DNA of 64,000 bases from Dehalococcoidia bacterium (GTDB lineage: Bacteria; Chloroflexota; Dehalococcoidia; Lucifugimonadales; JAGWBF01), in NCBI GenBank assembly GCA_965247055.1, contig CBDFGE010000006.1, positions 31,205-95,204 on the forward strand. The letters are read 5' to 3'. The translations under genes and the position numbers were made by a program. This document shows positions 1,132-56,941 of the stretch, piece by piece (positions within the stretch are counted from its first letter, which is position 1; every line of letters begins with the position of its first letter). Below the pieces are notes generated by a model that saw nothing but the letters and a program-made list of their open reading frames with translations, did no database searches and was not told the DNA's origin.

Positions 1132-1139
1132 GCTAGCCC

Positions 1140-2098: not shown

Positions 2099-2127
2099 TT
2101 GACACCTAAAAGGGTGGACGATATAGT
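2099..2127 (+). promoter_or_regulatory. sigma70-like promoter upstream of trxB
   Basis: TTGACA (2099-2104), a 17-nt spacer, then TATAGT (2122-2127), 25 nt before the trxB ATG. Confidence 0.5.
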
Positions 2128-2151
2128 TACGCCATCGCCAGGGCCCGGCGT

Positions 2152-3096: not shown

Positions 3097-3150
3097 GGCG
3101 GCGCCAGGACAGGGACACACGTCCACAGATCCAACATCAAGGAGGTAGTT

Positions 3151-4005: not shown

Positions 4006-4007
4006 GT

Positions 4008-6914: not shown

Positions 6915-7040
6915 CGCACGGGACGCGTCGCGCCGGTGGTCCCTTGACGGGCAAACCTCCCTGCAGTAGAGTTCAGCAGTTGGCTGCTGAGACCAGGTGG
7001 CTCGGCGCCCCCCCCACTAGCAGAAGAAGGAGGTACTCCC

Positions 7041-8197: not shown

Positions 8198-8469
8198 AAC
8201 GGCTCACCCGGAATAAACACGTCTTCGTCCTGGAGCCGGGCGCTACCCCCGCCATCACCATCGCCTCGGGGGAGGAGCTCATAGTGGAGACCTGGGACGC
8301 CTTTGAGGGGCTGAGGGACCCGCGCCAGATCCAGGAGAAGGGCATGGAGCCCTACGACGCCTACAGCCTCCTCAGCCTTGCGGGAGATATCCGAGTGTCA
8401 CGAGCGTTCCGCCCCACCAGTCCGGTGAAAATGATGCTGTCCCGGCGGGTGTTGGAACAGATCGGCTAG
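8194..8469 (+). CDS. acetamidase/formamidase-family remnant (in-frame internally deleted mini-ORF, 91 aa)
   Basis: The N-terminal ~50 aa (HVFVLEPGATPAITIASGEELIVETWDAFEG) and C-terminal ~40 aa (YDAYSLLSLAGDIRVSRAFRPTSPVKMML) match the two ends of ~300-aa FmdA/AmdA proteins. The catalytic core is absent. Confidence 0.55.
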   Translation: MKRLTRNKHVFVLEPGATPAITIASGEELIVETWDAFEGLRDPRQIQEKGMEPYDAYSLLSLAGDIRVSRAFRPTSPVKMMLSRRVLEQIG

Positions 8470-8472
8470 TCT

Positions 8473-26168: not shown

Positions 26169-29100
26169 CTACCGCTTGATGCCCGGCGTTAGGTTAGTGT
26201 TCGTCGTGTACAGCACCCAGTACCCTCTCCCTATCTGGGCCGCGTCGGAGATGGTGGTAACATTGTTGTCCGGCGCCGCCTGGTTCGGGGATATGCCGAT
26301 CCACTGGCCATGATCGAAGGTGAAGGCCTTGCTCCAGGTGGCCAGGCCGAAGTAGTTGTCCACGTCCAACTCGGTGCCCTCCTGTATGTCCGCCGTCGAG
26401 GCTAGAGGAGTTCCCGCGATGGCGATGGGGGCCAGGCTGATGACCGGTACCAGGTTCCACTCGCCGGCGATCACGGCTATGGTGGGCGGCACCTGGTCCG
26501 CCTGGAGCGGCGGCGTGGCTATGGACACGACCACGGTGGCGGTGGCCTTGACCCAGTAGGCGTGCCTGGCGTCTATGGTCTTCAGGTCGCCCACGAACAG
26601 GCCCGTTACCGGGTCGCGTACCGCTATGAGCCACGGCACGTTGGCCTCACCAGACAGTGGCCGCGTGAACACCAGGTTGACCTCGTCCACGCCGCCGAAT
26701 ACTGCTCCAATGGTCTTGTCTTTGGGGTCCCGGGGCACGGATTTCAGGTTCATGCCGGGGGACAGAGTTACCAGGAAGGGGGGCGGCTCCACCACCGTGA
26801 AGGTAACGCTGGCGGCGGTGGCCAGGGTGTTCCCCAGATCGTCGGTGCCGTTGAAGGTCAGGGTATGGGAGCCGATCCCGATCTTGGAGATGGCGATGCT
26901 GAAGGTGCGGTTGTCCCTCGTCCCCGACAGGCCCAGGACGTTGCGCTCGGTGGCCGTGCCGGCGTCCAGCACCGCGCTGGTGAGGGTGACGCCGGTATGG
27001 GTGTCGCCGTCGTACTCGGCCTCGGACGCCCAGTCGATCTCTACGACGAAGGGCTCCTGGTCGGGGGACTGCGATGCGGCCGCCGGCGTGGTGCCCACGG
27101 GCGCGGCCAGGGCGGGGTCTATCTCGACGGTCTCCGTCTTGGTCCCCAGGTTGCCGGCGGCGTCCCGGGCGGTTACCGTGATGTTGTACTGCCCGGCGTT
27201 GAATCCGGTGAGGTCAAAACTCCACTCCACCTGCGGCGTGACGATCCTGCTGGAAGTGGTGGAAGGGTTGTCGCCGGTGCACACCAGCGTGGGGGCGTTC
27301 ACGCACCGGTTGATGGCTCGCTGGGGCAGAGCGCCTACAATAGGCTCGTCGGAGGTTACCGTCATCGCGATGGTGCCCGTGGTGAAGGAATTAGCGATGT
27401 TGACCGTTAGTCCGGGCGAGATCCCGTCGGCGGCTGCCTCGACGACCGACGCCGTCACGTCATTCGTGTCCACAAAGTTGCTGCCCAGGTCCGCCACGTC
27501 GCCCACGATCTCTACCCGAGGCGTCGCAGTCGGGGCTAGCGTCGGCACCTGGAGGAACACGCTGTCAGGAAGATCGGCGGCGGGGTCGATCCCCGTCGGC
27601 TCTACGCCGTCCACCAGGAAGTCGCTGGTCTGGAAGCTGGTGGAGTCCATAGCTCGGTCGAAGACCACCCTGATCCACTCCCGCGAGCTGACTAGGCGCT
27701 CGTCTGCGGCCGTGGCTGGGTCGTCCGTTATCGTGGAGTCGAACCTAGTACCGGCGACGACGCTGTTCAGCTCCGGCCTCCTGTTGTCCACGAACAGCGT
27801 GAAGGGCTGTGCCCCAGCCGTGGCGGCGTCAGCGTCCGTCGACCCCAGATTGCCCGCGTTGTCCCGGGCCTCGATGCGCCAGGTTATGGTAGCCCGTCCC
27901 GCGGTGGTCGCCAGGTCCGCGATGGGAGTGAGGTTGTTTATGCTGTATTTGATACTGTATACCCCGGACCCGGAGAAGGTCTCGGCCACGCTGATGTCGC
28001 TGGTACTAACCGCCTGTGGGATGTTGTTCACGGAGGCGAACACGGCAACGGACGCACCGACCTCGGCCGAGGGATTTACACCGGCGATGGTGTCGGTGAC
28101 CTCAACGGTGAGCTCGGTGGTCAGGACGTTGACCGTTGCGTTATCCGCCGGGCTCGACACGGGGAAGGTGGGTGCCCCCGACTCCACGCTGACCCGCGCG
28201 GGAGACGGTGCGCGCCCGTTCTGGTCGTTGTAGCTGACGGTGATGGCGCCGCCATCGAATCCCGCCAGGTGGGGCCGCACAGCGTCCCCGGTGAGGGTGG
28301 GGTCCAGGTTGGCGTTGTCGGCGCCGTCTGCGTCCACGTTACCGTCGATCACGATGACGGTGGTGGAGTATATCCCGGTGTTGGGCCCCGTCTCCCTCAT
28401 ACGCAGCGGGATCTCCCTGGCAGCGGCATCTTTCACCGTCACCAAGTCGGCCAGCCCGAGGTAGTTGATATTGATGGTGGTGCCGACGGCAAGGGCATCT
28501 CCCGAGTGCGCGAGGGTGATTGTGTTCCCGCCGGCCAGCCCGTTGTCGGCGTTGGCCAGGGTGGCGACCCGACCCAGGTCGGTGATCACCGGTGTGTTGG
28601 CCACACTTCTCCCAGCGATGCTCAGGTTTATGTCGGCGGTGCTAACCGCACCGGAAGCGTTGGTGTCCTGCAAGGGCAGCCAGTCGAGATTCAGGCCCAG
28701 GGTGAAGGCTTCGCCGTTGGTCAGCCCCGTGTTAGGTATGGTCACTGCCTGCCGGCCGAGGTAGGTCACCGTAAAGGTGGCGCCGTTGGCAAGGGTGGTG
28801 TTGAACGTCACCGTCTTGTTGTCCCCTGAGATGGCGGTGGCCGTGGCGGTCCCGGTGATGACGATGTCCGCCACTGTGACGGTGCCTGAGACGTTGTTAT
28901 CGAGGACCACGTTGTTCAGGGCTGCCGTGAAGTCGCCGGTAGCGTCCTTGCCCGCTACTGAAACGGTCTGGGACTGAAGGTAGTCCAGGAAGTTGGTGGC
29001 GTTGCCGGCGACCAGGGTCGCCGGCGTGTTGTTCGTCAGAGTCACTGAGGTCTGAGCCTGGGAGAGGGCCGTCACGGTCAGGGTGCTGGACCCCCCGGTC

Positions 29101-29861
29101 ACTGTCACGTCGGCGCTGCTGACGGCGCCGGAGACGTTGGTGTCCAGCAAGGTGTTGCCGAGGCTCTGGCTGAAGCCCTCTCCTTCTATAAGGTTGGTTC
29201 CCGGGGACGCGGGCGCCTCCGGGAACAGCTTCGGGAACCGCGTCAGCTCCCGGCCGGGCGTTGCGTAGCGCAGATCGAAAGTTTTCCCGCCCAGGGAAGC
29301 CCGGAAGATGCTGACCTGGATGATACCCGCGTCCGCGTTGAAGATGCTCTGGACGGCGATATCGGCTGCTACGCCGTCACCGTCCACGTCGGTATTCACG
29401 ATGAACACGTCGGCCACGGTTATAAAGCCATCGTCGTCGCGGTCGGCCAAGGGGGTAGCGTCCGCGGCGCCGATGGGGTTGGCCGCCAAGACGACCGTCA
29501 GGGTGGAGCCCTGGGTCTGGCCGGCGGGTATAATCACCCGCTCACCGTTACCCCCGGTGATGGCGGGTCCGCTCACTCCCACCGTGTTCGCGATCTGGTC
29601 GAGGTTGGCTAGTTCGTTGTTTGGCCCGGTGCCCACGAAGAGGGGGGTGTTGAGGTTGGCGTCTGTAAGAGTGATGGTGATGGTACGGTCGACGGTGGAC
29701 ACGGCGTTGTCGTGAGACACCACCGCCGGAGTTGCCGTCAGGGTCCCCGTTACGGGCCCCTTGTGAACGGCCCCTGCAGGGAGGGCCCACAATGCCAGAG
29801 TCAGGACCAGGAGTGTGATAGCTCCCAGACTAACGTAGGGCCAGATACTATTCCTTTTCAT
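26169..29861 (-). CDS. large secreted cell-surface (S-layer-like) protein with Ig-like domains
   Basis: 1230 aa with signal peptide (LVLTLALWALPAGA|VHKG). T/V/A/N/G-rich with many N-x-S/T sequons. Repeated D.AGN(L)G motifs (RDNAGNLGS, RDAAGNLGT) and VDNRRPEL are typical of bacterial Ig-like (SbsA/Big-type) domains. No C-terminal anchor. Confidence 0.85.
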   Translation of the reverse strand: MKRNSIWPYVSLGAITLLVLTLALWALPAGAVHKGPVTGTLTATPAVVSHDNAVSTVDRTITITLTDANLNTPLFVGTGPNNELANLDQIANTVGVSGPAITGGNGERVIIPAGQTQGSTLTVVLAANPIGAADATPLADRDDDGFITVADVFIVNTDVDGDGVAADIAVQSIFNADAGIIQVSIFRASLGGKTFDLRYATPGRELTRFPKLFPEAPASPGTNLIEGEGFSQSLGNTLLDTNVSGAVSSADVTVTGGSSTLTVTALSQAQTSVTLTNNTPATLVAGNATNFLDYLQSQTVSVAGKDATGDFTAALNNVVLDNNVSGTVTVADIVITGTATATAISGDNKTVTFNTTLANGATFTVTYLGRQAVTIPNTGLTNGEAFTLGLNLDWLPLQDTNASGAVSTADINLSIAGRSVANTPVITDLGRVATLANADNGLAGGNTITLAHSGDALAVGTTININYLGLADLVTVKDAAAREIPLRMRETGPNTGIYSTTVIVIDGNVDADGADNANLDPTLTGDAVRPHLAGFDGGAITVSYNDQNGRAPSPARVSVESGAPTFPVSSPADNATVNVLTTELTVEVTDTIAGVNPSAEVGASVAVFASVNNIPQAVSTSDISVAETFSGSGVYSIKYSINNLTPIADLATTAGRATITWRIEARDNAGNLGSTDADAATAGAQPFTLFVDNRRPELNSVVAGTRFDSTITDDPATAADERLVSSREWIRVVFDRAMDSTSFQTSDFLVDGVEPTGIDPAADLPDSVFLQVPTLAPTATPRVEIVGDVADLGSNFVDTNDVTASVVEAAADGISPGLTVNIANSFTTGTIAMTVTSDEPIVGALPQRAINRCVNAPTLVCTGDNPSTTSSRIVTPQVEWSFDLTGFNAGQYNITVTARDAAGNLGTKTETVEIDPALAAPVGTTPAAASQSPDQEPFVVEIDWASEAEYDGDTHTGVTLTSAVLDAGTATERNVLGLSGTRDNRTFSIAISKIGIGSHTLTFNGTDDLGNTLATAASVTFTVVEPPPFLVTLSPGMNLKSVPRDPKDKTIGAVFGGVDEVNLVFTRPLSGEANVPWLIAVRDPVTGLFVGDLKTIDARHAYWVKATATVVVSIATPPLQADQVPPTIAVIAGEWNLVPVISLAPIAIAGTPLASTADIQEGTELDVDNYFGLATWSKAFTFDHGQWIGISPNQAAPDNNVTTISDAAQIGRGYWVLYTTNTNLTPGIKR
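28452..29177 (-). repeat. three internal ~75-85-aa protein repeats within the surface protein
   Basis: Units start GFSQSLGNTLLDTNVSGAVSSADVTVTG (aa 229), DFTAALNNVVLDNNVSGTVTVADIVITG (aa 310) and AFTLGLNLDWLPLQDTNASGAVSTADINLS (aa 384). Each ends ...T(V/I)..YL(G/Q). Confidence 0.8.
29337..29444 (-). other. dockerin/EF-hand-like paired Ca-binding loop segment in the surface protein
   Basis: aa 140-175: DRDDDGFITVADVFIV followed by NTDVDGDGVAADIAVQSI. The first loop fits D-x-D-x-D-G-x-I-x-x-x-D. Confidence 0.5.
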
Positions 29862-46976: not shown

Positions 46977-48029
46977 TCACCCCCCTAGAGCCAGAGAGAG
47001 GGCCTCACTTATACCCACCGTCGCGCTGGCCCGCACCCTGCTTCCCCCCGCCAACTCCTCCACCCGGGCGGCGCCCTTTGATCTGGCGGCCAGGTCCCGG
47101 GCTATATCTACTAGGGCAGACCGGCCCGCATCCGGGGACGAGAAGTCTAATATCCAGTCGACGGTGCCCTCCTCGCCCTCTACCCTAGCGCTCACGGCCA
47201 GCCCCACGCAGCCCTCGTACCGCCCGATGAGCCGGCAGTCCCTGGACACAATCATGGCGCTCCCTGGAGGAAGGCCCGGGACCAGTCGGCTCACCTCGGG
47301 GTCAGAGAGGAAGCCCGCCCCTGGTGCTTCGGCCGTGTCCAGGACGGCCTCCACCAGATCTGCGCTCGACCTACCGGGGGAGAGAGCAAGAGCGAACACC
47401 GCCGTCTTGGCATCGATGAGGCTCATGGTCAAGGGCAGGGTAAGGAACGGGAGCTTGACGTCCACCGTGAACATTTCAAAAGCGCCATGCCCTTGGGACC
47501 GGGTCTCGGACTCCGGCGCCTTCACCGCGTTGAGGAAGTCCTCAATGTCCAGCGACCACCTTACTGCCCCTAACACTGCCCCCGATGCTACGGCCAGCGC
47601 CATCGCATCTGCCTGCTCCCTGAGGGGGGCTGCCACGGGGCCCAGCAGAGCCCATATTCCCAGATCGTCGAGGGCGTCCCCCAGCAGCGGGTTGGCCCGG
47701 ATAGCGGCGATGTCCACGTAGGTCACAGAGCTGGAGTCCGCGGGGATCACCGACAGCAGCTCCTCGAACGACCCCCGGTCCACCGGCAGGTTGGCGCCTT
47801 CTTGGGCCGAGGTGTCCGGGGCTGGCGCGGTGGTGGGCTGGGGCGTGGGAGTAGGACCAGGCGTCGGAGCCTTGGTTGGTGTCGTCGTAGGGACGGCAGT
47901 AGCCGCAGGGGAGGGGGTGGCCAGAGGGCTAGTCGCGGTGCATCCAATCATCGCCGCGACGAGAAGGAGGGACCCGCCCAAGAAGGCGTCCGCTCTAACC
48001 CTGCTCCTGCTATGGGAATCCCCCACCAT
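46977..48029 (-). CDS. hypothetical lipoprotein with PT-rich linker
   Basis: The start was chosen at MVGDSHSRSRVRADAFLGGSLLLVAAMIGC (lipobox-like AMIGC). The linker is TPSPAATAVPTTTPTKAPTPGPTPTPQPTTAPAP. The ORF-track 70-aa G/P-rich extension is rejected. Confidence 0.7.
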   Translation of the reverse strand: MVGDSHSRSRVRADAFLGGSLLLVAAMIGCTATSPLATPSPAATAVPTTTPTKAPTPGPTPTPQPTTAPAPDTSAQEGANLPVDRGSFEELLSVIPADSSSVTYVDIAAIRANPLLGDALDDLGIWALLGPVAAPLREQADAMALAVASGAVLGAVRWSLDIEDFLNAVKAPESETRSQGHGAFEMFTVDVKLPFLTLPLTMSLIDAKTAVFALALSPGRSSADLVEAVLDTAEAPGAGFLSDPEVSRLVPGLPPGSAMIVSRDCRLIGRYEGCVGLAVSARVEGEEGTVDWILDFSSPDAGRSALVDIARDLAARSKGAARVEELAGGSRVRASATVGISEALSLALGG

Positions 48030-48038
48030 CGGTTGGGC

Positions 48039-48067
48039 ATTGTAGCAGCTGGGCGTGGTGGTTTCAA
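48039..48067 (-). promoter_or_regulatory. sigma70-like promoter giving a (near-)leaderless lipoprotein mRNA
   Basis: On the minus strand: TTGAAA (48067-48062), a 17-nt spacer, then TACAAT (48044-48039). The ATG at 48029 begins 9 nt after the -10 hexamer, and there is no SD sequence. Confidence 0.45.
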
Positions 48068-48112
48068 CCAACGGCGGCAAGCGGCGCGGTGTTACCCGCC
48101 CATGGGAGTCGC

Positions 48113-49282
48113 CTACACCAACTCCCGCACTGCCTCCACCACCGAGCCGACCTCCTCCTCGGTATTGAAGAAGTGGAGGGACACCCGAAGGCAAGGGGGG
48201 TAGGTCACCGAACGGGCCACTATCCGGTGCCGCTCCCACAGCTGGGACGCGGCGAGCGTAGGGTCTACCCCGGCCACTACGAAGGACACCAGGCCCGAGG
48301 AGCTACGCCTGTCCAGGGGCGACAGCACAGTAACGCCGGGTATCTCCTGCAGCGCGTGCTTCATCGACGTCGCCAGGTCCAGGTTGCGGCGCTCGATCTC
48401 CTCGACCCCGATGTCCTGGATGAACCTCATGGCCTCCAGCATCCCGGCGCGCAGGGCGGTGCTGGATGAGGTGAGAAGGAACCTGTCTATCGAGGGGGCG
48501 CTTGGCTCGAAGCGCGTTGGGTCCTTCTGGGGGACAGCCGCCCGGCCCGACACGTACACCGGCTCCACCTGTGGTATCAGGTCCTTTCGTATGTATAGTG
48601 CCCCGGCCCCCTCGGACCCCAGGAGCCATTTCTGCCCAGGGATGGAGTAGAAGTCGCAGCCCAGGTCCCTCATGTCCAGAGGGATGTGGCCCGCCGTTTG
48701 CGCCCCATCCAGCAGCAGCAGGATGCCCCGATCCTTAGTAAGGCCCCGTATCTCTTTAACGGGCATCCGCAGGCCGCAAGAGTACTGGATATGGCTCAGG
48801 AAGATCAGGCGAGTGTGCTGTGTGAGGGCGTCCTCCAGTTTGGCGAGAATCGCGTCCGGCGGCTCGTCGGGGGCCAGGGACAGGATCTTGACCACCGCGC
48901 CGTGCCGCCGCTCCTGGTAGAAGCTGGGCACCAGCACCGAGCTGTGCTCCAGGTTGCAGGTGATGATCTCGTCCCCCGTCGCCCAGGTGAGCCCGTTTAT
49001 GACGATGTTGAGCCCCTCGGTGGTGTTGCAGGTGAGGCATATCTCCTCGGAGGAGGCGTTGAGCAGACCTGCCACCGCCTCTTTGGCCCTCGTCTGAAGC
49101 TCTCTGCCGCTCTCGTAGACCTTTGGACTCGTGGGTCCCTGGTCCATCTCGTAGTCCAGGCGCTCCTTGATGGCCGCCGTGACGGAAATCGGAGACGGAC
49201 CCGACCAGCCGGTGTTCATGTAGACCATGCTCCGGCAAGCAGGTAGCTGCTCCCTCAGTTGGGCAACGTCCATGCCAAGCAA
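48113..49282 (-). CDS. aminotransferase class V-fold PLP-dependent enzyme (cysteine desulfurase/isopenicillin-N epimerase-like)
   Basis: ...VYMNTGWSGP...CNTTEGLNIVINGL...LFLSHIQYSCG...DGAQTAGHIPLDMRDLGCDFYSIPGQKWLLG (Lys in the PGQKW context). Confidence 0.85.
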   Translation of the reverse strand: MLGMDVAQLREQLPACRSMVYMNTGWSGPSPISVTAAIKERLDYEMDQGPTSPKVYESGRELQTRAKEAVAGLLNASSEEICLTCNTTEGLNIVINGLTWATGDEIITCNLEHSSVLVPSFYQERRHGAVVKILSLAPDEPPDAILAKLEDALTQHTRLIFLSHIQYSCGLRMPVKEIRGLTKDRGILLLLDGAQTAGHIPLDMRDLGCDFYSIPGQKWLLGSEGAGALYIRKDLIPQVEPVYVSGRAAVPQKDPTRFEPSAPSIDRFLLTSSSTALRAGMLEAMRFIQDIGVEEIERRNLDLATSMKHALQEIPGVTVLSPLDRRSSSGLVSFVVAGVDPTLAASQLWERHRIVARSVTYPPCLRVSLHFFNTEEEVGSVVEAVRELV

Positions 49283-49502: not shown

Positions 49503-49994
49503 GTGAACGGTCTTAGGGAGGCTGTACAAGACAAACCGATGACACAAGAGCAGTTGGCCGAAAAACTGAAGCGTTGGGGGATACGACTCACCCCCCAGCG
49601 TCTTGCCATAGCAGAGGTGGTCATTAACTCCAGTGACCACCCATCAGTGCAGCAGATCTACGAGCGGGTCTCCCAGCGGTTCCCCTACATCACCCTGGCC
49701 ACGGTCTACTCGACGCTGGCTGTGTTGCAGAAAAAGGGCCTGGTACAGGAGCTGCCCTTCCAGAAGCTGTCCCGGTATGATGCCAACCTGACCCCCCACG
49801 CCAACCTGGTGTGCGTCTCTTGCGGAACCGTGGTGGATACCGAGGTGGGGCAAGACATGATCGAGCGCCTCAGGGCGGAGCTGGCGAGTAAAGCAGAGTT
49901 TGACATCGCTTCCCAGCGTGTGGACTTTTACGGCTGGTGCCCTCAATGCGCCATAAGCGCCGAGGAGTTTGCCGTCGTTCAAAGTCCTTCCTAG
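49503..49994 (+). CDS. Fur family transcriptional regulator (PerR/Zur-like)
   Basis: ...RLTPQRLAIAEVV......PSVQQIYERV....P.ITLATVYSTL..L...GLV.EL, with two CxxC pairs (CVSCG, CPQC). The start is either GTG at 49503 or ATG at 49539. Confidence 0.85.
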   Translation: MNGLREAVQDKPMTQEQLAEKLKRWGIRLTPQRLAIAEVVINSSDHPSVQQIYERVSQRFPYITLATVYSTLAVLQKKGLVQELPFQKLSRYDANLTPHANLVCVSCGTVVDTEVGQDMIERLRAELASKAEFDIASQRVDFYGWCPQCAISAEEFAVVQSPS

Positions 49995-50000
49995 GCGGTC

Positions 50001-52454
50001 CTACTCAAGCTCCCCCAGCACATCGGTGTCGGACACTTCCTTCCAGCATCTGATGAACGCATCATCCCCCATCCTGGACCTCAGACTGGAGAGGTGCGCC
50101 CTGGCGGCTTGGAGTAGGGGTAGCCCGTGGGCGGCGGCGATCTCGTAGGTGTGGGCCACGTACCATACCGCGTGGGGGTAGTTGCGACGCTGATCGGCCA
50201 GCAGTCCTAGCTGACCCCACGTGCTGGCCGCAGCAACATCACCCTCCACGCGCACAAGCAGATCCAACGCCCGGTGGTACAACTCCTCGGCCTCGTTGTG
50301 GCGTCCTTGCGCATGGGCGGCCACTCCAAGCTGGTGGTAGCTATTGGCTACGCCGGCGGCGTCCCCCAGCCGTTCGTAGGCGGCCAGCGCTTGCCGCAGG
50401 AGTGCCTCGGCCTCGTCGTACTCGTAGCGCCGGAGGGCGATAACCCCAACCTGGTAGTAGTCGCCGGCCGCCGCGGCCTCGTCACCCAGCTCCTCGTAAA
50501 CCAACAGGGCCCTTTGGTACCACCCCATGGCCTCCTCGTAGTCGAACCGAGCCTGGGACATCAGTCCCAGCCGATGGAAAATAGCGGCCTCTCCGGCCTT
50601 GTCCCCCAGGTGCTCATAGACGGCCCTTGCCCGGTGGTACAGTTCCAGGGCTTCCTCGGGTCTGGACCGTGCCTCGACCACCAGGGCCAGCTGGTGATAC
50701 TCGCTGGCCGACTCGGCCTCATCCCCCAGCCGCTCCCGAATCTCCACGGCCCTCCTGTGCCATGTCTCGGCGTCCTCGTAGCTTTGTCCCAGCTGGGCTA
50801 GCAGGCCCAGCTGGTGGTAGCTGTCCGCGCACTCCGCCTCGTTCTTCAGGGGTTCATTAATGTTCAATGCCTTGCCGTACCAGCCCTCCGCCTCCGGGGC
50901 GTTGCCTCTGCCTTGGGCGGCCAGGCCCAAGAGGTGACATGCCGACGCTATCCGGGGCTGGTCGGCCGGGTCCCGTGACGACTCCAGGTACCCCAGGACG
51001 GAGGAGCATATGCTCTCAGCCCTGTCCATCTCTCCCCGCTGGATGGCTTCGCTGGCATCGGTCATCTGGACGTACATCCACAGCTCCGTTGCATCCCGCC
51101 GCTCAGTCTGAGCGCCCTCGGATCCCAGGCGGGACAGCAGGCTGTCCTTGATGCGGCGCAGCTCCAGGACCCGGTCCTGCATCTTGTACACCTGTGCCAG
51201 CGGCTGGAGGAGGAGCTGGGCGCTGTCCCACTGCTCTGCCGCCACCGCCATCTCTAGCGCCCACAGCAGGTTGGCCTCCTCCGCGAGGACCCCGGTGACG
51301 GTCGACTGGGCGCTCTCCGATGAGAGGTTTTCGAGGAAATACTCGCCCATTCCCGCGTAGACCTGGACGAACTCCCGCTCCAGAGCTTCGATCTGGTCTA
51401 CCCCGAGACGGCGCCGGAGCTGCCGGGACAGCGTCGGGGCGACCGAGGGAGGGATCACGTAGGCACTCGGGGATACGGAGTCCAGAATGCCAAAGTCCCT
51501 TGCCTCCCTCAGGAAGCTGCGGCAGGCGCCCCACCCCATCTCCTCTCCCATGACCTTCCTGTACACCTCGCCCTGGGTGATGAAGGTCACCACGTCGAGG
51601 AGCACCCGCTGCCGGAGGACGGCCAGGAAGGGCAGGTGGGACCTGGTGCGGGGGGACAGGAGGGAGAAGGAGCAGTCCAGAGCGGCATCCATGATCTCCC
51701 ACTCTCCGGGGCCCGCCTCGCCGGGACCATTCAGAGAGAGGACGAGGTCGGCGGCCGAATGCTGCTTCAGATGGGGCAGCATCACCCTTGTGGCCATGGG
51801 GTTCCCTCGGAGAAGCCGTAGCAGCTCTGCATAGCCGGGTCCCGCTTCCGCCTCGCCTGTCTCCGAGCTTGCCAGGACCTCCCGTGCCAGGTCCCGGGCG
51901 TCCCCTTCCTTCAGGGGCCCGAGCTCTTGCCGCCTGTAGCCGATCCCGGCACCTTCTATCCACCCCGCGCTCTGGCCGGTGATCAGGACACAGGTGGGTC
52001 CGGGGTGTATGTCCTTGAGGAACTCCATGAGCTCCTGGCACTCACCTCGGTCCAGGTAGTCGAAGACGCGCTCGAAGTTGTCCCAGACGAGCAGGCAAGG
52101 GTGCTGCTTGACATAGTCCAAGACCCACTGCCGCTGCTGGTCCAGAGAGAGGCGGGCGAAGCCGATGCCCCGAAGGGTGGTCCCCACCTCGTGAAGCAGG
52201 CGGCACAACCCAGCCCCGTACTCGAAGGAGGTGTAGAGTATCCCTCCCTGCCTGTCGTCCCCCGCCGCCTGCCTACGCGCCAGCTCACAGGCCAGCTCTG
52301 TCTTGCCCACCCCTGGAGGCCCGGTGAGAAGTACGACGGATGGCTCTATCAGGGCCGCCGCCAACTCCTCTTCCCGGCCGACGAAGCCGTACCGACCCTG
52401 CGGCGGCAGGTCTACCGTCTGCTTGCCGCCGGTCTCCGGGCCTACGGGCTGCAT
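50001..52454 (-). CDS. STAND (NB-ARC-like) NTPase with C-terminal TPR array and no recognisable effector domain
   Basis: Walker A GPPGVGKTE (aa 44-52), Walker B CLLVWDNFE (aa 120-128), VLITGQS, and GNPMA (the GxP motif). Seven 40-aa TPR units follow. Only about 20 aa precede the NTPase core. Confidence 0.85.
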   Translation of the reverse strand: MQPVGPETGGKQTVDLPPQGRYGFVGREEELAAALIEPSVVLLTGPPGVGKTELACELARRQAAGDDRQGGILYTSFEYGAGLCRLLHEVGTTLRGIGFARLSLDQQRQWVLDYVKQHPCLLVWDNFERVFDYLDRGECQELMEFLKDIHPGPTCVLITGQSAGWIEGAGIGYRRQELGPLKEGDARDLAREVLASSETGEAEAGPGYAELLRLLRGNPMATRVMLPHLKQHSAADLVLSLNGPGEAGPGEWEIMDAALDCSFSLLSPRTRSHLPFLAVLRQRVLLDVVTFITQGEVYRKVMGEEMGWGACRSFLREARDFGILDSVSPSAYVIPPSVAPTLSRQLRRRLGVDQIEALEREFVQVYAGMGEYFLENLSSESAQSTVTGVLAEEANLLWALEMAVAAEQWDSAQLLLQPLAQVYKMQDRVLELRRIKDSLLSRLGSEGAQTERRDATELWMYVQMTDASEAIQRGEMDRAESICSSVLGYLESSRDPADQPRIASACHLLGLAAQGRGNAPEAEGWYGKALNINEPLKNEAECADSYHQLGLLAQLGQSYEDAETWHRRAVEIRERLGDEAESASEYHQLALVVEARSRPEEALELYHRARAVYEHLGDKAGEAAIFHRLGLMSQARFDYEEAMGWYQRALLVYEELGDEAAAAGDYYQVGVIALRRYEYDEAEALLRQALAAYERLGDAAGVANSYHQLGVAAHAQGRHNEAEELYHRALDLLVRVEGDVAAASTWGQLGLLADQRRNYPHAVWYVAHTYEIAAAHGLPLLQAARAHLSSLRSRMGDDAFIRCWKEVSDTDVLGELE
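50112..50951 (-). repeat. seven tandem 40-aa (120-bp) TPR-type coding repeats
   Basis: (Y/F/W/C)(H/Y/G)(Q/R/L)(L/V)G motifs fall at aa 506, 546, 586, 626, 666, 706 and 746, an exact 40-aa period. Units resemble YHQLG....G.Y.EAE..Y.RAL..YE.LGD.A..A. Confidence 0.85.
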
Positions 52455-52466
52455 ATTGGTGTCAAC

Positions 52467-53711
52467 TTATTCCACCAGGTCGGCCGCAGGGTAACTGACC
52501 CGGACCGTGACCATGTTCAATACAGCACAGGATATGACGAGGCAACCTATCAGGCCCAGCAGGGCCATGGGCTGCCCCAGCCCAAGGGTGCTCGATATGA
52601 GTGCCCACAAGAAGGGGCCGGCTACTCTCCCCAGTTTGCCCACCATCCCGTGGAGGCCGAAGAACTCCCCCAGGTACTGGGGAGGCGTAAGGCTCAGCAT
52701 GTAAGGCCGGTCCGCCGTCCAGCCGCCGGCCATCGCCACACCGGTGAGACATCCCACCAGCCACCACAGATGACTAGTCAAGGATAGCCACGCCATGCCC
52801 ACGGCGATCAGGAGCAGGACTATCCAGATGGTCAGCGCCGCGGTTAGGACCGATTTTGGGCCCAGACGGTCCACCATAGTACCCCAGATCACTCCACTAG
52901 GAACCGCGACGGAGATGCCCGCCAGCAGCACCAGCTGTATCTCTCTGTCGCTGAGGCCGACGGTCTGGAACGCGTAGACCACGGCGAAGGCCACGGCGGT
53001 GTTGATCCCCATACAGTAGAGCAGCCGGGCCAGCAGGAACTGGCGCAGTCCCGGGAACTGGTCCAGGTTCCGCAGGTTGCGACGGAGCTGTGAAAATCCT
53101 TCTATGACCTTGTCCCACGCCGTGGAGGCCGGTACCGGCCTCGGTGCCTCTTTCAGCAGGAAGAATATGGGGAGGGAGAACAGTAGAAAGAGGAGGGCCA
53201 CCACATGGATGACGAAGACATATCCCCTGGAGTCGGAAAAGATAGCCGCGACCCCCACCGCTATGAAGGCCCCCACGTAGCCGATACCCGTGCCCATTCC
53301 GGAGATTTTCCCTCGGTTGGACTCGGTGCTTACCTCCACGAGCAGCGCGTTGTAGAAGATGGTGCCCAGCTCCATACTGGCGAGGGCCAGGGCGAAAATG
53401 GAGAGGGTGACCACGAAGCCGCCCGTTCCCAAAACGAGGGTAGAGGCTACGCACAGGAGGGTCGTGGCCACCAGCAGAGGCATCCTGCGATTAGCGTGGT
53501 CGGAGATGGCCCCGAGAATGGGGGCCGTAACCAGCACTACGAACATGGCTGCGGCCAGCGTGTAGCCCAGGGTGGCGTCGTCTCCCCGCAGGTCCTTGGT
53601 TAGCCACAGGGGGAAACTGACGCCTACCACCCCGGTCCAGAAGACGGTGTTGGCCACATCGTAGGTCACCCAGGCGCCTACCGCGGCGCGCCTCGACCGC
53701 TGTTCCTTCAA
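52467..53711 (-). CDS. MFS transporter (UMF1/Atg22-like family)
   Basis: 414 aa with about 12 TM segments. N-terminal ...AWVTYDVANTVFWTGVVGVSFPLWL... is typical of the UMF1 family. Confidence 0.85.
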   Translation of the reverse strand: MKEQRSRRAAVGAWVTYDVANTVFWTGVVGVSFPLWLTKDLRGDDATLGYTLAAAMFVVLVTAPILGAISDHANRRMPLLVATTLLCVASTLVLGTGGFVVTLSIFALALASMELGTIFYNALLVEVSTESNRGKISGMGTGIGYVGAFIAVGVAAIFSDSRGYVFVIHVVALLFLLFSLPIFFLLKEAPRPVPASTAWDKVIEGFSQLRRNLRNLDQFPGLRQFLLARLLYCMGINTAVAFAVVYAFQTVGLSDREIQLVLLAGISVAVPSGVIWGTMVDRLGPKSVLTAALTIWIVLLLIAVGMAWLSLTSHLWWLVGCLTGVAMAGGWTADRPYMLSLTPPQYLGEFFGLHGMVGKLGRVAGPFLWALISSTLGLGQPMALLGLIGCLVISCAVLNMVTVRVSYPAADLVE

Positions 53712-53840: not shown

Positions 53841-54037
53841 CGGCTCGGCACCTCCTCGTAGTACACGAGAGCCCGAGATACCCGCCCGGCCTCAGGCCAA
53901 TATAGCGCCGGGAGCTACCGGCGTCAAGGCTAGGAGGACGCTGCCGCTGGCGTGCTCTTCGAGTAAGATATGGTACGGGGGTGTGGAGGTGTGGGGCAGC
54001 GTCCTCCGGTCCCCGGTATATCGATGAGGTGGAGCCC

Positions 54038-56497
54038 ATGTGGGCCGTGGTCTTCATAGGCGCCTGGATAGCGGGGCTCCTGGTAGGGCTGGAAGCCGAT
54101 GTGTACGTTCCCGCCCTGGTATCCTTCTCCCTGGCGACGGCTATCCTGGCGTACCTTTTGAAGCTCAGAGGCGTTTCGCCCTGGCCCGGCGTTCTGGCCG
54201 TTGTCCTGCTCGTGGGCGTTGTCAGGGTGGAGGCCGCCGAGCGGCCTGCTTCCGGGGTGCCGGCTGACAGTCTCCGATCCATCACGATTGTTGGGGAGGT
54301 GGTCAGCGATCCCGAGCTGTCCGCACGCGGGGTGGAGTTCACCGTATCGGTCCGTGCGGTGGACCTGGGAGCAGGCTGGGTAGAGGACAGGGGCAAGGTG
54401 TTGGTGTTCGCCAGGCCGACCAGCGAGCTGGTCCGGACAAGGGGCGCGCCATATTTCCGCTATGGTGACAGCCTGGAGCTCACGGGGAGGTTGGAGGCCC
54501 CACTTTCCTTTGGGGGGTTCGACTACGGGGCTTACCTGGCAAACCAGGGGATACGCTCCACCATGGCCTTCCCCCAGGTCCGAGTGCTGGAGGAGGGGGG
54601 AGGCAACCCGGTCCTTCGGGAGGTGTACGGGCTCAGGCGGAAGCTGTCCGGGGGGATCGACGAGGCGTTACCCGAGCCCCAGGCCTCCCTGGGGCGGGCC
54701 CTTCTGCTGGGGCTGCGCGGCCGGCTCCCCGCGGACGTCAAGGACGAGTTCAGGTCCACGGGCACGTCCCACCTGCTGGCGATCTCCGGCCTTCACGTTG
54801 GCATCGTCCTGGCCTTGAGTGCGGCGGCTGGGGCCTGGCTGATGGGTAGGAGGAGGCAGGTGTACCTGTTCCTGCCCCTGGTTGCCATCTGGCTCTATAC
54901 GCTGCTTAGCGGGCTGGCCCCTTCGGTGGAGCGTGCGGCGGTGATGGGAAGTATCTACCTCCTTGCAATGGCGTTGGGGAGGCCAAGGAGCATTCTGCCT
55001 GCCCTGGCGTTGGCCGGCGGGGTGATGGCGGGAGTCGATCCCCAGGTCCTGGAGCAGGTGTCGTTTCAGCTCAGCTTCACGGCCATGGCCGGGATAGCGC
55101 TGCTTAGTTCCACCGAGCCGCCGCTGTGGAGACGGCTCCCGGGAATCTCCGTGGAGGGGCCGGGACCGTGGAGGGGCTTACTGAGGGGGCTGGCCCTGGC
55201 TGTGGTGGTCTCGGTGGCGGCGACCGTCGCCACGTTGCCCCTGATAGCCTTCAACTTCCAGCGCATCCCTACCCTGGGGGTTCCCACCACCATTCTGGCG
55301 CTGCCCGCCATGCCCGCCTTGCTGGTGGCCACGGCGATGGCGGCCGTGGCCGGCCTGGTCCACCCCCAGGCGGGTCAGGTGCTTGGCTGGGTCGCCTGGG
55401 TACCGCTGGAGTACCTCATAAGACTGGCCAGCCTGGCTTCGAAGGTGCCGGGTAGCACGCTCTCGGTGCCGGCCTTCAGCGGCGTCCTGGTGTGGGCGTA
55501 CTATGGAGTCCTGGCGGTACTCCTTCTGCTTCCCGGCGGGCCCCGGGGCCTGTGGAGGTGGCTGGTGAGGCTCGTCGCTGAAGGGAGGGACAGGGCCGGC
55601 CGGGCCGGGTCGCCGGGCCCCGGTCTCGCCGTCCCCATAGGGGCGATGGTCCCGATGGTGGGCCTCGCGGTCCTCGGCGCCGTCCTCTGGTGGCAGGTCG
55701 TTGGCGGGACCGATGGGCGGCTCCATGTGCACTTTCTGGACGTGGGCCAAGGTGACAGCGTGCTAATCGTAACCCCGGAGGGCAGGCAAGTGCTGGTGGA
55801 CGGGGGGCCGGGGGCCGATGCGGCGGCCCGCGCGGTCGGCGACAGGACGGCCTTCTGGGACAGGGACCTGGACATGGTCGTGCTCACCCATCCCAACGAG
55901 GACCATTTCCGAGGGCTGGTGGAGGTGGTGGACCGGTACGGCGTGGGCATCGTCCTCGAAGGGGGCGGCCGCTCCGAGAACCCCCTTTACCTGGAGTGGG
56001 AGCGGACTCTGCAAGGAAAAGAGATTCTCCGTGTAACCGCCTCCCAGGGACAGACCGTATCCCTGGGGGGCGATACGTGGATGGAGGTGCTGGGCCCTCC
56101 CTCCAACCCCATGCGGGGCACCGGCTCGGACGTGAACAACAACGGCGTGGTGCTGAGGTTGGTGTACGGCGGGGTCAGCTTTCTTCTGACGGGGGACATC
56201 GAGGCCGGGGCTGAGGAGCGGCTGCTACTTTCGGGGCTGCCGCTGCGGAGCACCGTGCTGAAGGTGGCCCACCACGGCAGCAGGACCTCGACGACGGAGC
56301 AGTTCCTGTCGGCGGTGAGCCCGGCGGTGGCGGTGGTCTCCGCAGGCGCCGCCAACCCCTATGGCCATCCCCACCCAGAGGTGACCGACAGGCTGGCGGC
56401 CATGCCCGGGGAGAGCAGGACTTACGTGACCGCCGAGCGGGGCGCCATAGAGTTCACCACCGACGGCGAGCGCCTCTGGGTCAGGACGGAGCGGTAG
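54038..56497 (+). CDS. comEC: DNA internalization-related competence protein ComEC/Rec2 (with C-terminal MBL domain)
   Basis: Polytopic competence domain (...FRSTGTSHLLAISGLHVGIV...) and a C-terminal beta-lactamase fold (FLDVGQGDSVLI...VLTHPNEDHFRG...KVAHHGS). The start was chosen at MWAVVFIG. Confidence 0.9.
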   Translation: MWAVVFIGAWIAGLLVGLEADVYVPALVSFSLATAILAYLLKLRGVSPWPGVLAVVLLVGVVRVEAAERPASGVPADSLRSITIVGEVVSDPELSARGVEFTVSVRAVDLGAGWVEDRGKVLVFARPTSELVRTRGAPYFRYGDSLELTGRLEAPLSFGGFDYGAYLANQGIRSTMAFPQVRVLEEGGGNPVLREVYGLRRKLSGGIDEALPEPQASLGRALLLGLRGRLPADVKDEFRSTGTSHLLAISGLHVGIVLALSAAAGAWLMGRRRQVYLFLPLVAIWLYTLLSGLAPSVERAAVMGSIYLLAMALGRPRSILPALALAGGVMAGVDPQVLEQVSFQLSFTAMAGIALLSSTEPPLWRRLPGISVEGPGPWRGLLRGLALAVVVSVAATVATLPLIAFNFQRIPTLGVPTTILALPAMPALLVATAMAAVAGLVHPQAGQVLGWVAWVPLEYLIRLASLASKVPGSTLSVPAFSGVLVWAYYGVLAVLLLLPGGPRGLWRWLVRLVAEGRDRAGRAGSPGPGLAVPIGAMVPMVGLAVLGAVLWWQVVGGTDGRLHVHFLDVGQGDSVLIVTPEGRQVLVDGGPGADAAARAVGDRTAFWDRDLDMVVLTHPNEDHFRGLVEVVDRYGVGIVLEGGGRSENPLYLEWERTLQGKEILRVTASQGQTVSLGGDTWMEVLGPPSNPMRGTGSDVNNNGVVLRLVYGGVSFLLTGDIEAGAEERLLLSGLPLRSTVLKVAHHGSRTSTTEQFLSAVSPAVAVVSAGAANPYGHPHPEVTDRLAAMPGESRTYVTAERGAIEFTTDGERLWVRTER

Positions 56498-56503: not shown

Positions 56504-56941
56504 CTATGGGGCTTTCATCGATACCATAGGTCCTGGGACCACATTGAAGCGTGTGCGCCACATCTCCTGCCCTTCGATTCGCGCAACGATGACCTTAGTG
56601 CCTGGGTCCTCCAGGCGGAGATTCATGTCGATTGCAAGTTGGACACGCTGATCTTGCCCCTGAGGGATGCCTGCCGGCCGCCCGACCTCGAATTGCCCTC
56701 CTACCTTCAAGAGATCCTTGGGCTCTTCCGTGGAGGGATCCTCGCTTGTTACCTCGACCTCAAAGGTGTGCCTCTGGTTGGTCTCATTCCAGGGAACCTT
56801 TACCGAGAGCGCTACGCCACAGCGTCGGTCAAGCGGGAACCCACTGTTCACGGTGAGCGTGTCCCAGCCACCCCCCAGAAGGTACAGCTTGTTGCCGACC
56901 ACCTGGGCCGAGTCGGCCAAGATAAGCCACTCAACTTCCAC
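56504..56941 (-). CDS. hypothetical beta-rich protein (distant paralog of the 5168-5638 product)
   Basis: 145 aa: MEVEWLILADSAQVVGNKLYLLGGGWDTL... ...GTKVIVARIEGQEMWRTRFNVV. It shows the same three-block architecture as the 5168 ORF. Possibly a DUF-type family, not identified with certainty. Confidence 0.65.
   Translation of the reverse strand: MEVEWLILADSAQVVGNKLYLLGGGWDTLTVNSGFPLDRRCGVALSVKVPWNETNQRHTFEVEVTSEDPSTEEPKDLLKVGGQFEVGRPAGIPQGQDQRVQLAIDMNLRLEDPGTKVIVARIEGQEMWRTRFNVVPGPMVSMKAP

What the first reader, a model, noticed from the sequence alone, without database searches (positions are those of the whole stretch)
50001..53711. Effector-less STAND NTPase with seven exact 40-aa TPR units, 12 bp downstream of and in frame with an MFS transporter
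Seen in sequence: the 817-aa protein has NB-ARC-type motifs (GPPGVGKTE, LLVWDNFE, VLITGQS, GNPMA). A helical middle region follows, then seven TPR-like units with an exact 40-aa period. Only about 20 aa precede the NTPase, so there is no nuclease, protease, TIR or DNA-binding effector. Its ATG (52454) lies 12 nt after the TAA of the UMF1-type MFS gene (52467-53711). No SD sequence lies between them, and both ORFs are in the same reading frame (53711-52454 = 1257 = 3 x 419). They are separated only by TAA plus 4 codons. Established: STAND NTPases with TPR sensors act as bacterial Avs-type immune sensors or as regulators (AfsR/MalT type), normally with a fused effector or DNA-binding domain. Inference: this may be either a split remnant of a membrane-tethered STAND protein or a two-gene module in which the transporter is the output. 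The shared frame has a 1 in 3 chance of being coincidence.
Basis: partly seen in the sequence, partly recalled or inferred. Interest (0 to 1): 0.55.

Follow-up and report, generated by a model that had tools for sequence, protein, structure and literature searches.

The report
Protease-less STAND–TPR switch beside a transporter
This is an intact, conserved ATP-switch protein with a repeat sensor that has lost the protease domain its relatives carry; its tight, in-frame position behind a transporter gene is inherited gene order plus chance, not a split fusion.

Summary
The sequence observation holds. An 817-aa ORF (50001-52454, minus strand) encodes a P-loop STAND core, a helical arm and seven exact 40-aa TPR units. 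Its ATG lies 12 nt after the TAA of a UMF1/ATG22-type MFS gene, in the same frame.

- No NB-ARC Pfam hit was found. The best structural match is PH0952 (STAND-TPR), then Apaf-1.
- The protein is effector-less by descent. Full-length relatives (36-40% identity, about 1,220 aa) carry an N-terminal CHAT protease, and the short forms are one clade nested among them.
- The short form occupies a fixed chromosomal block in Dehalococcoidia: ComEC | MFS, then optional DinB and DUF4286-like genes, then STAND, then convergent Fur.
- MFS lies upstream in 18 of 20 testable loci. The gap runs from -1 to 4,267 nt, other genes intervene in 8 loci, and only 2 of 8 tight junctions are in frame.
- No MFS-STAND fusion was found, and no shared terminal motif.
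- More distant STAND homologues do not sit beside this UMF1-type MFS, and more distant MFS homologues do not sit beside a STAND.

Best reading: a vertically inherited, ATP-dependent TPR switch or scaffold with its output in trans, probably co-transcribed with the MFS here. Function is unknown. Interest is modest.

The parts
50001..52454 (-). Whole gene for the 817-aa CHAT-less STAND-TPR protein (stop codon 50001-50003)
   Evidence: ORF. A 99%-identical protein and 59 aligned short-form homologues at 38-63% identity. AF2 model pLDDT 91, pTM 0.81. Best PDB fold match 6mfv, PH0952 STAND-TPR.
52392..52454 (-). N-terminal tail, aa 1-21. Variable and disordered except the conserved 'DLPPxG' linker. 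No effector.
   Evidence: Mean identity among orthologues 0.39. First 10 residues pLDDT 31. P17 is conserved even in CHAT-bearing relatives. No similarity to the MFS C-terminus.
51855..52391 (-). Nucleotide-binding domain, aa 22-200. Walker A GPPGVGKTE is nt 52296-52322, Walker B LLVWDNFE is nt 52071-52094, and VLITGQ (Q161 at the family's Arg position) is aa 156-161.
   Evidence: AAA_25 and AAA_22 score above cut-off; AAA_16, NACHT and nSTAND3 score below. G48, G50, K51 and D125 are invariant in 91 sequences. Position 161 is R in 47/59 short forms and 28/31 CHAT forms, but Q here.
51420..51854 (-). Helical domain with the GxP motif (GNPMA, aa 217-221) and winged-helix domain (about aa 246-345) ending in 'AYVIPP' (P335 at the MHD-like position)
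   Evidence: Secondary structure of the model: helices, then a beta-hairpin at 325-333. Fold matches to PH0952 and Apaf-1. The NOD profile matches the Roq1 NB-ARC region. CHAT relatives have 'YQIHP', with H in 23/31; short forms have P 29, S 16, H 11.
50949..51419 (-). Helical arm / pre-TPR region, aa 346-502
   Evidence: All-helical hairpins in the model. Highly conserved: TGVLAEEANLL and QPLAQVYKMQ are near-invariant. Corresponds to the arm of PH0952 (PMC6468293).
50109..50948 (-). Seven TPR-like units of exactly 40 aa, aa 503-782
   Evidence: Lag-40 identity 32%. TPR_12 and TPR_10. Structural matches to LGN/Pins and KLC TPRs. Ortholog identity 0.58, not lower than the NBD at 0.51.
50001..50108 (-). 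C-terminal capping helices and tail, aa 783-817, plus the stop codon
   Evidence: Helices 780-804 in the model. Conserved HLSxLRSKMG...W...SD motif.
52455..52466 (-). 12-nt spacer GTTGACACCAAT between the MFS TAA and the STAND ATG
   Evidence: No promoter-like or terminator-like site here. Spacer length is not conserved in relatives.
52467..53711 (-). UMF1/ATG22-type MFS transporter gene, 414 aa, TTG start with GGAGG at -12
   Evidence: Pfam MFS_1 and ATG22. 9 hydrophobic segments. Homologues named UMF1 family. SD-like GGAGG upstream.
53899..53927 (-). Only sigma-70-like promoter match upstream of the MFS-STAND pair (TTGACG-17-TATATT)
   Evidence: This is a consensus match only, not evidence of function.
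49503..49994 (+). Fur-family regulator gene, convergent; 6 nt between the two stop codons. Part of the conserved block, not shown to be functionally linked.
   Evidence: Pfam FUR, E=1e-26. Present downstream in 18 of 22 related loci.
53981..56497 (+). ComEC gene, divergent from the MFS. The other edge of the conserved block.
   Evidence: Pfam Competence, DUF4131 and Lactamase_B. Present in 15 of 22 related loci.

Best explanation
The gene encodes an intact STAND-family ATP switch. Its order is nucleotide-binding domain, helical domain, winged helix, helical arm, then seven 40-aa TPRs and a cap. It descends from a family of CHAT-protease-STAND-TPR proteins and has lost the N-terminal protease. 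It is a single-locus, vertically inherited chromosomal gene of one Dehalococcoidia lineage.

Most likely mechanism, inferred by analogy with PH0952, MalT and Apaf-1:
1. At rest, the arm and TPR sensor clamp the nucleotide-binding domain.
2. A conserved, probably cellular, ligand binds the TPR groove and opens the core.
3. ATP replaces ADP and the protein multimerises.
4. With no effector domain of its own, the output must be protein-protein contact, by scaffolding or sequestering a partner encoded elsewhere.

In this genome the gene is probably co-transcribed with the upstream MFS transporter and translated by re-initiation 12 nt after its stop codon. That juxtaposition arose because intervening genes present in relatives are absent here. 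The shared reading frame is coincidence.

Shown: architecture, conservation, loss of CHAT, synteny, absence of fusions. Inferred: switch behaviour, ligand, partner, co-transcription.
For: Architecture:
- Pfam P-loop and TPR hits.
- AF2 model with pLDDT 91.
- Top fold match is PH0952-deltaN (6mfv, E=1e-13, 803 aligned columns), followed by TPR proteins, Apaf-1 and Avs3. The profile also hits PH0952 by sequence.

Functional constraint:
- Walker A G48, G50, K51 and Walker B D125 are invariant in 91 sequences.
- Full-length conservation at 47-63% identity across 22 genomic loci and more than 50 protein clusters.

CHAT ancestry:
- Relatives at 36-40% identity over the whole length carry CHAT at about aa 100-370.
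- 97 of the 146 nearest 50%-identity representatives match the CHAT-region profile.
- In an NJ tree the short forms are one clade, sister to Dehalococcoidia CHAT forms, with CHAT-bearing cyanobacterial and actinobacterial sequences outside.

Vertical inheritance:
- Same block (ComEC, MFS, STAND, Fur, aminotransferase) in the related loci.
- STAND identity to the window tracks ComEC (r=0.93), Fur (0.90) and MFS (0.78).
- GC content is flat across the region and the neighbours are housekeeping genes.

Sensor and operon:
- The sensor is not diversifying: TPR identity 0.58 against NBD 0.51.
- The operon reading rests on the 12-nt gap, no promoter-like or terminator-like site between the genes, and the only promoter-like site lying upstream of the MFS.

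Mechanistic precedent: PMC6468293.
Against: - No experiment, ligand or partner is known, so 'scaffold with trans output' is inferred by elimination.
- The window protein has Q161 where most of the family has the sensor-I-type Arg. Like most short forms, it lacks the MHD-like His of the CHAT relatives. The classical ADP-locked switch may therefore be altered or lost.
- These position equivalences rest on motif order and a Roq1 NB-ARC profile match, not on a superposition.
- The NJ tree has no support values, and it was rooted on the most distant sequences.
- The promoter scan uses only a sigma-70 consensus.
Confidence: 0.5

Rival explanations
1. Two-gene module: the STAND-TPR protein and the UMF1-type MFS transporter work together. 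Either the transporter is the output (gated or stabilised by the oligomer), or transporter activity is the input that controls the switch, as MalK controls MalT.
For: - MFS is upstream on the same strand in 18 of 20 testable orthologous loci.
- The junction is very tight (-1 to 43 nt) in the window and seven loci, including the divergent 47%-identity clade.
- Where other genes intervene they are also tightly packed and co-directional, i.e. operon-like.
- The distant short clade also has an MFS gene nearby, but of another family and on the opposite strand.
- There is a precedent for transporter-to-STAND control in MalK-MalT (PMC6468293).
Against: - The adjacency is no more conserved than STAND-Fur or ComEC-MFS, so it looks like block synteny.
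- A DUF4286-like gene, a DinB gene or IS elements separate the two genes in 8 loci.
- L005 has an intact STAND with ComEC directly upstream and no MFS.
- In one MAG the MFS is split by an IS while STAND remains intact.
- MFS homologues at 50% identity or less have no STAND neighbour.
- The CHAT relatives checked have no MFS neighbour, and the distant short clade has no UMF1-type MFS neighbour.
- No complementary terminal motifs.
Confidence: 0.2
2. Antiviral or conflict sensor (Avs/bacterial-NLR type) whose effector is supplied in trans, for example a separately encoded caspase-like protease.
For: - Its closest relatives are CHAT-STAND-TPR proteins.
- CHAT proteases fused to NACHT or repeat domains act in bacterial gasdermin cell-death systems (bioRxiv 10.1101/2021.06.07.447441).
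- Avs3 is among the fold matches.
Against: - No PADLOC system model matches beyond generic TPR or P-loop.
- Neighbours are housekeeping genes and the region shows no compositional anomaly.
- The locus is fixed and co-diverges with the chromosome.
- The sensor repeats are conserved, not diversified.
- No CHAT-like sequence in the 64-kb window or within 8 kb in 22 related loci.
- Among the megabase-size contigs listed, short and CHAT forms never share a contig length. This is weak evidence.
Confidence: 0.1
3. Split or readthrough fusion: MFS and STAND were, or still are through TAA readthrough, one membrane-tethered polypeptide.
For: Same frame, with only TAA plus four sense codons between the ORFs.
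Against: - The frame is shared in only 2 of 8 tight junctions.
- Gaps run from -1 to 4,267 nt.
- The aligned short-form homologues start at or near the same N-terminus.
- No MFS homologue carries NTPase or TPR domains.
- None of 146 nearest representatives has an MFS-like N-terminus.
- TAA is an efficient bacterial stop codon (general knowledge).
Confidence: 0.02
4. Decaying relic of a CHAT-NLR with no remaining function.
For: - The effector has been lost.
- The MHD-like His is lost in most short forms, and the Arg at position 161 is lost in the window protein.
Against: - The ORF is full-length and uninterrupted in 22 loci and more than 50 clusters.
- Walker motifs are invariant.
- Column identity is 58% over the whole length, including the repeats and the C-terminal tail.
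Confidence: 0.03

Closest known systems
PH0952 of Pyrococcus horikoshii (STAND with TPR sensor; PDB 6mfv; PMC6468293)
   Same: Same order of NBD, HD, WHD, helical arm, TPR sensor and capping helix. It is the best fold match over the whole length and the only STAND found by sequence profile in the PDB at E of about 1e-8. The crystallised form (deltaN) has exactly the domain set of the window protein.
   Different: [quoted passage not shown] Sequence identity is about 14%. PH0952 has six repeats, the window protein seven of 40 aa.
CHAT-STAND-TPR proteins of Dehalococcoidia, Cyanobacteria and Actinobacteria (uncharacterised; annotated 'tetratricopeptide repeat protein')
   Same: True homologues over the entire 817 aa (28-40% identity, 84-100% coverage), including the linker motif before the P-loop.
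   Different: They have about 400 extra N-terminal residues with a CHAT caspase-like protease domain, keep the 'YQIHP' His, and sit in different genomic contexts.
Apaf-1 / NB-ARC (AP-ATPase) clade of STAND NTPases
   Same: Walker A, Walker B, hhhT[GS]R, GxP and a winged helix in the same order. Apaf-1 structures are among the fold matches, and the NOD profile hits the Roq1 NB-ARC region.
   Different: No PF00931 match at E<=0.01. The MHD-like His is replaced by Pro. TPR sensor rather than WD40 or LRR. No CARD, TIR or CC effector.
MalT and AfsR (STAND transcription factors with TPR/SUPR sensors)
   Same: NOD plus a TPR-type sensor. Weak TPR_MalT and AfsR-TPR matches. MalT is controlled by a transporter subunit (MalK), a precedent for STAND-transporter coupling.
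   Different: No LuxR or SARP DNA-binding domain. The matches are confined to the TPR region.
Avs / bacterial NLR-related antiphage sensors
   Same: STAND core with a C-terminal repeat sensor. Avs3 appears among the fold matches.
   Different: No N-terminal effector, no PADLOC model match, housekeeping context, conserved sensor.
NLR/effector gene pairs with amyloid signalling motifs (BASS/RHIM-like; bioRxiv 10.1101/2020.01.06.895854)
   Same: An NLR-like protein with only about 20 aa before the NTPase, encoded immediately downstream of a membrane-protein gene.
   Different: The N-terminal tail is variable and disordered. It shares no motif with the MFS C-terminus in 9 loci, scoring no better than shuffles. 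The upstream gene is a transporter, not a Bell/HeLo-type effector.

Membership tests
STAND NTPase superfamily | P-loop NBD with Walker A (GxxGxGKT) and Walker B (hhhhD) | tested here: met
   GPPGVGKTE at aa 45-53 and LLVWD at aa 121-125. G48, G50, K51 and D125 are invariant in 91 homologues.
STAND NTPase superfamily | NBD-HD followed by a STAND-specific winged-helix domain, then arm and repeat sensor | tested here: met
   AF2 model (pLDDT 91) shows this order. Best fold hit is PH0952 (6mfv), and Apaf-1 also matches.
STAND NTPase superfamily | Sensor-I-type Arg after the fourth strand (hhhT[ST]R) | tested here: not met
   The window has Q161. The family has R in 47/59 short forms and 28/31 CHAT forms. 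Equivalence of the position is inferred from motif order and the Roq1 match.
STAND NTPase superfamily | At least one effector domain at a terminus (usual, not universal) | tested here: not met
   No domain besides P-loop and TPR in Pfam, NCBIfam or PADLOC. The model is all NOD, arm and TPR.
NB-ARC (Pfam PF00931) | Match to the NB-ARC profile | tested here: not met
   No PF00931 hit at E<=0.01. There is only a weak profile match to the Roq1 NB-ARC segment in the PDB (E=1e-4).
NB-ARC (Pfam PF00931) | MHD-type His at the end of the winged helix | tested here: not met
   'AYVIPP', with P335. CHAT relatives have 'YQIHP'.
NACHT (Pfam PF05729) | Match above the Pfam gathering score | tested here: not met
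   23.6 bits against a cut-off of 26.7. Some homologues carry precomputed PF05729 or PF20703 hits.
CHAT-STAND-TPR family | Homologous NOD-arm-TPR body | tested here: met
   36-40% identity over 97-100% of the query to proteins of about 1,220 aa.
CHAT-STAND-TPR family | N-terminal CHAT caspase-like protease domain | tested here: not met
   Absent from the protein, and absent from the window by tblastn.
Avs / antiphage STAND | Fused immune effector, defence-gene neighbourhood, or a match to known defence models | tested here: not met
   PADLOC gives only generic TPR or P-loop hits. Neighbours are ComEC, Fur, aminotransferase and glutamate synthase.
Avs / antiphage STAND | Activation by a phage protein and protection from phage | not testable with these tools
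   Requires experiment.
MalT/AfsR-type STAND regulators | DNA-binding effector domain (LuxR HTH or SARP) | tested here: not met
   No HTH or SARP domain. The matches are to TPR regions only.
Amyloid-motif NLR/effector pair | Short N-terminal motif shared with the C-terminus of the adjacent effector | tested here: not met
   Local alignment scores are within the shuffle range in the window and 8 loci.
TPR repeat proteins (TPR_12/TPR_10 type) | Tandem helix-turn-helix repeats matching TPR profiles | tested here: met
   TPR_12 E=2e-41 and TPR_10 E=1e-27. Seven units of 40 aa. LGN and KLC TPR structures match.
UMF1 / ATG22-like MFS (upstream gene) | MFS fold with an ATG22-family match | tested here: met
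   MFS_1 at 99 bits and ATG22 at 87 bits, both above cut-off. Homologues are named UMF1 family.

The most novel reading that the evidence does not exclude
A former cell-death NLR (CHAT-STAND-TPR) was domesticated in one Dehalococcoidia lineage. It lost its protease and its ADP-lock histidine. It has since been kept as a core chromosomal gene in an operon with a UMF1 transporter (and, in many relatives, a DUF4286-like alpha+beta-barrel protein). There it works as a transporter-linked or metabolite-linked ATP switch with a purely protein-protein output. That would be a bacterial NLR re-purposed for physiology rather than immunity.
Probability: 0.12. Interest if true: 0.6.

Novelty: new variant of a known kind. 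Interest (0 to 1): 0.3.

Why it matters
STAND/NLR proteins are usually read as sensor plus switch plus fused effector. This is a clean natural case where the effector was deleted yet the sensor and switch stayed under constraint, in a fixed locus, across a whole lineage. That implies an output which does not need a fused domain. If the partner were found, it would show how an NLR-type switch can be re-used outside immunity, and what a bare NOD-TPR can signal to.

For annotation, the practical result is negative:
- The MFS juxtaposition and shared frame do not indicate a fusion.
- They do not indicate a readthrough product.
- They do not indicate a defence system.

Tried and rejected
- **Readthrough or split fusion.** Rejected by variable gaps and frames, the consistent N-terminus, and the absence of any fusion in two database searches.
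- **Amyloid-type paired motif** between the MFS C-terminus and the STAND N-terminus. No signal.
- **NB-ARC, HTH, nuclease, TIR or protease domains** in the protein. None found in Pfam, NCBIfam or PADLOC.
- **DNA-level tandem repeats** under the TPRs. None.
- **CHAT gene elsewhere** in the window or in the flanks of 22 loci. None.
- **Homology between the DUF4286-like gene of relatives and the NIPSNAP gene of the distant short clade.** Not detectable by BLASTP or hhalign with shallow profiles.
- **Rfam scan of the window.** No hits.
- **Residue-level mapping of Q161 and P335 onto PH0952.** The printed alignments were taken up by Clp ATPase hits, so the mapping stays inferred.
- **SD argument.** Uninformative, because most genes here lack a clear SD.
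- **Literature search for Dehalococcoidia STAND/TPR work.** Nothing relevant.

Full report
**1. Observation**

- ORF 50001..52454 (-) encodes 817 aa and ORF 52467..53711 (-) encodes 414 aa.
- The junction reads GTG GAA TAA GTT GAC ACC AAT ATG. That is 12 nt between stop and start, in the same frame.
- The four motifs sit at aa 45-53, 121-128, 156-162 and 217-221.
- Residues 503-782 form seven units of exactly 40 aa. Identity at lag 40 is 32%, against 4-11% at neighbouring lags.
- Pfam gives TPR_12 at E=2e-41. The periodicity is in the protein only; Tandem Repeats Finder sees no DNA repeat.
- The upstream gene is an MFS_1/ATG22 (UMF1-type) transporter.

**2. What the protein is**

Domain searches:
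- Pfam finds generic P-loop families. AAA_25 and AAA_22 are above cut-off; AAA_16, NACHT and nSTAND3 are below.
- There is no NB-ARC match at E<=0.01.
- NCBIfam and PADLOC add nothing beyond TPR or P-loop similarity.

Structure:
- An AlphaFold2 model built on a 91-sequence alignment is confident, with pLDDT 91 and pTM 0.81.
- It shows a five-stranded P-loop domain, a small helical domain carrying GNPMA, and a winged helix with a beta-hairpin at 325-333.
- About 150 residues of helical hairpins follow, then the TPR solenoid and capping helices.
- Only the first 10 residues are disordered.
- Foldseek against the PDB puts PH0952 (6mfv), a STAND with a TPR sensor, first over the whole length. LGN/Pins and KLC TPR domains, Apaf-1 and Avs3 follow.
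- Profile searches also reach PH0952, and weakly the NB-ARC region of Roq1.
- According to PMC6468293, the PH0952 clade lies between the Apaf-1 and MalT clades. Native PH0952 has an N-terminal ArsR-type effector that was removed for crystallisation.

The window protein therefore has the domain set of PH0952-deltaN. 'STAND with TPR sensor' is confirmed, 'NB-ARC-type' is a near miss, and no effector or HTH was found in the tail or the middle region.

**3. Why it is effector-less**

The homologue search shows two tiers.
- The first tier holds more than 50 clusters of 790-880 aa at 47-63% identity. All that carry a name are from Dehalococcoidia.
- The second tier holds about 45 clusters of roughly 1,220 aa at 36-40% identity over the full query. 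These carry PF12770 (CHAT).
- Pfam places CHAT at about residues 100-370, directly before the same NOD-TPR body.
- In an exhaustive profile search of 1.84 billion representatives, 97 of the 146 best non-query hits match a profile of that CHAT region.
- A neighbour-joining tree of the shared 812 columns makes the short forms one clade. That clade is sister to the Dehalococcoidia CHAT forms, with CHAT-bearing cyanobacterial and actinobacterial proteins outside.

The most economical reading is one loss of the protease. Two caveats apply: the tree has no support values, and it is rooted on the most distant sequences.

Two regulatory positions changed as well.
- CHAT forms have 'YQIHP' at the end of the winged helix, with His in 23 of 31. 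This is the place of the MHD/LHD histidine. Short forms have Pro (29), Ser (16) or His (11), and the window has Pro.
- The Arg after the fourth strand (47/59 short forms, 28/31 CHAT forms) is Gln in the window protein.
- Walker A and Walker B are invariant.

**4. The MFS linkage**

Twenty-two loci from GTDB species genomes, all Dehalococcoidia MAGs, encode an orthologue. tblastn with the window's neighbours shows one conserved block:
- ComEC
- MFS
- sometimes a DinB_2 gene
- sometimes a 238-aa gene with a DUF4286/EthD-like domain
- STAND
- convergent Fur
- class-V aminotransferase

MFS lies upstream on the same strand in 18 of 20 testable loci. The distance from its stop to the STAND start varies widely:

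| Gap (nt) | Loci |
|---|---|
| -1 (TAATG) | L015 |
| 12 | window |
| 14 | L016, L018, L022 |
| 21 | L019 |
| 43 | L006, L014 |
| 145-242 | three loci |
| 761-4,267 | eight loci, with other genes or IS elements between |

- Only 2 of the 8 tight junctions are in frame, as chance predicts.
- L005 has ComEC directly upstream and no MFS.
- In one MAG an IS is inserted in the MFS while STAND remains intact.
- STAND identity to the window co-varies with ComEC (r=0.93), Fur (0.90) and MFS (0.78). The whole block has diverged together.

Outside this clade the link vanishes.
- The 40%-identity short forms have a NIPSNAP gene upstream and a different, divergently oriented MFS.
- Two CHAT relatives have unrelated neighbours.
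- Three MFS homologues at 48-50% identity have no STAND nearby.
- The MFS homologues listed are 250-641 aa and none carries NTPase or TPR domains.
- None of the 146 nearest STAND representatives has an MFS-like N-terminus.
- The MFS C-terminus and STAND N-terminus share no motif. This rules out the amyloid-motif pair model of bioRxiv 10.1101/2020.01.06.895854.

The split-fusion and readthrough ideas are rejected. A functional pair is not excluded, but it is no better supported than inherited gene order.

**5. Expression**

- The 12-nt spacer holds no promoter-like or terminator-like site.
- The only sigma-70-like match is about 190 nt upstream of the MFS.
- Lack of an SD is not distinctive, because most genes checked here lack one.

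Co-transcription with re-initiation is therefore plausible but unproven.

**6. Mechanism and rivals**

The conserved Walker motifs, arm and sensor point to an ATP-dependent switch of the PH0952/MalT/Apaf-1 type. Several features argue for a cellular ligand and against a phage sensor:
- conserved rather than diversified repeats
- fixed locus and housekeeping context
- no defence-model match

With no effector, the output must be protein-protein contact with something encoded elsewhere.

| Reading | Confidence |
|---|---|
| ATP-dependent TPR switch or scaffold with trans output | about 0.5 |
| MFS-linked module | 0.2 |
| Defence sensor with a trans effector | 0.1 |
| Relic | 0.03 |
| Fusion or readthrough | 0.02 |

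**7. Novelty**

- STAND-TPR proteins are well known, and so are CHAT-NLR fusions. CHAT proteases fused to NACHT or repeats occur in gasdermin systems.
- This particular protease-less, lineage-fixed clade is uncharacterised. My literature searches found nothing on it.
- It is a new variant of a known kind, of modest interest.

Noticed in passing
L002 7244-7960; also L003, L007, L008, L010, L011, L012, L013, L020 (absent from the window): A conserved 238-aa gene with a DUF4286/EthD-like domain sits directly upstream of STAND in 9 of 22 related loci, between MFS and STAND (L003 and L010 are cut by the contig end, so MFS is not seen there). The distant short clade (L028 7297-7917, L030 5300-5917) instead has a two-domain NIPSNAP gene 83 nt upstream. 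A link between the two could not be shown by BLASTP or hhalign.
   Followed up: partly
window 51972-51974 (Q161) and 51450-51452 (P335) within the STAND gene: The window protein has Gln where most of the family has the sensor-I-type Arg. It has Pro where the CHAT relatives have the MHD-like His. The nucleotide switch may be altered. The position equivalences are inferred, not superposed.
   Followed up: partly
L006 and L014 (same MAG), about 6023-14607: An 8.6-kb segment carrying the MFS 3' fragment and STAND is 99.8% identical on two contigs. It is bracketed by 1.7-kb copies of an IS encoding a 441-aa transposase-like ORF, which interrupts the MFS gene. This looks like a composite-transposon-like duplication, or an assembly of strain variants.
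   Followed up: partly
window 26169-29861 (-): A 1,230-aa ORF with an N-terminal hydrophobic segment and a long Thr/Ser/Ala/Val/Asp-rich sequence. It has no Pfam family at E<=1e-5. It looks like a secreted or cell-surface (S-layer-like) protein.
   Followed up: no
L023 and L029 (CHAT-STAND-TPR relatives): Both CHAT-form loci share downstream Bac_luciferase, MmgE/PrpD and Thy1 genes. The protease-bearing forms therefore also sit in a conserved chromosomal location rather than in mobile defence islands.
   Followed up: no
window 49995-50000: The Fur-family gene and the STAND gene converge with only 6 nt between their stop codons, and no terminator-like site was found there. Their transcripts would overlap or collide. 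The Fur neighbour is conserved in 18 of 22 related loci, at variable distance.
   Followed up: partly
window 56504-56941 (-) and 46977-48239 (-): A DUF6941 protein with a strong GGAGGTG SD lies next to ComEC. A 420-aa ORF with a Pro/Thr-rich linker and no Pfam match lies next to the aminotransferase; the latter has homologues in L008 and L017.
   Followed up: no
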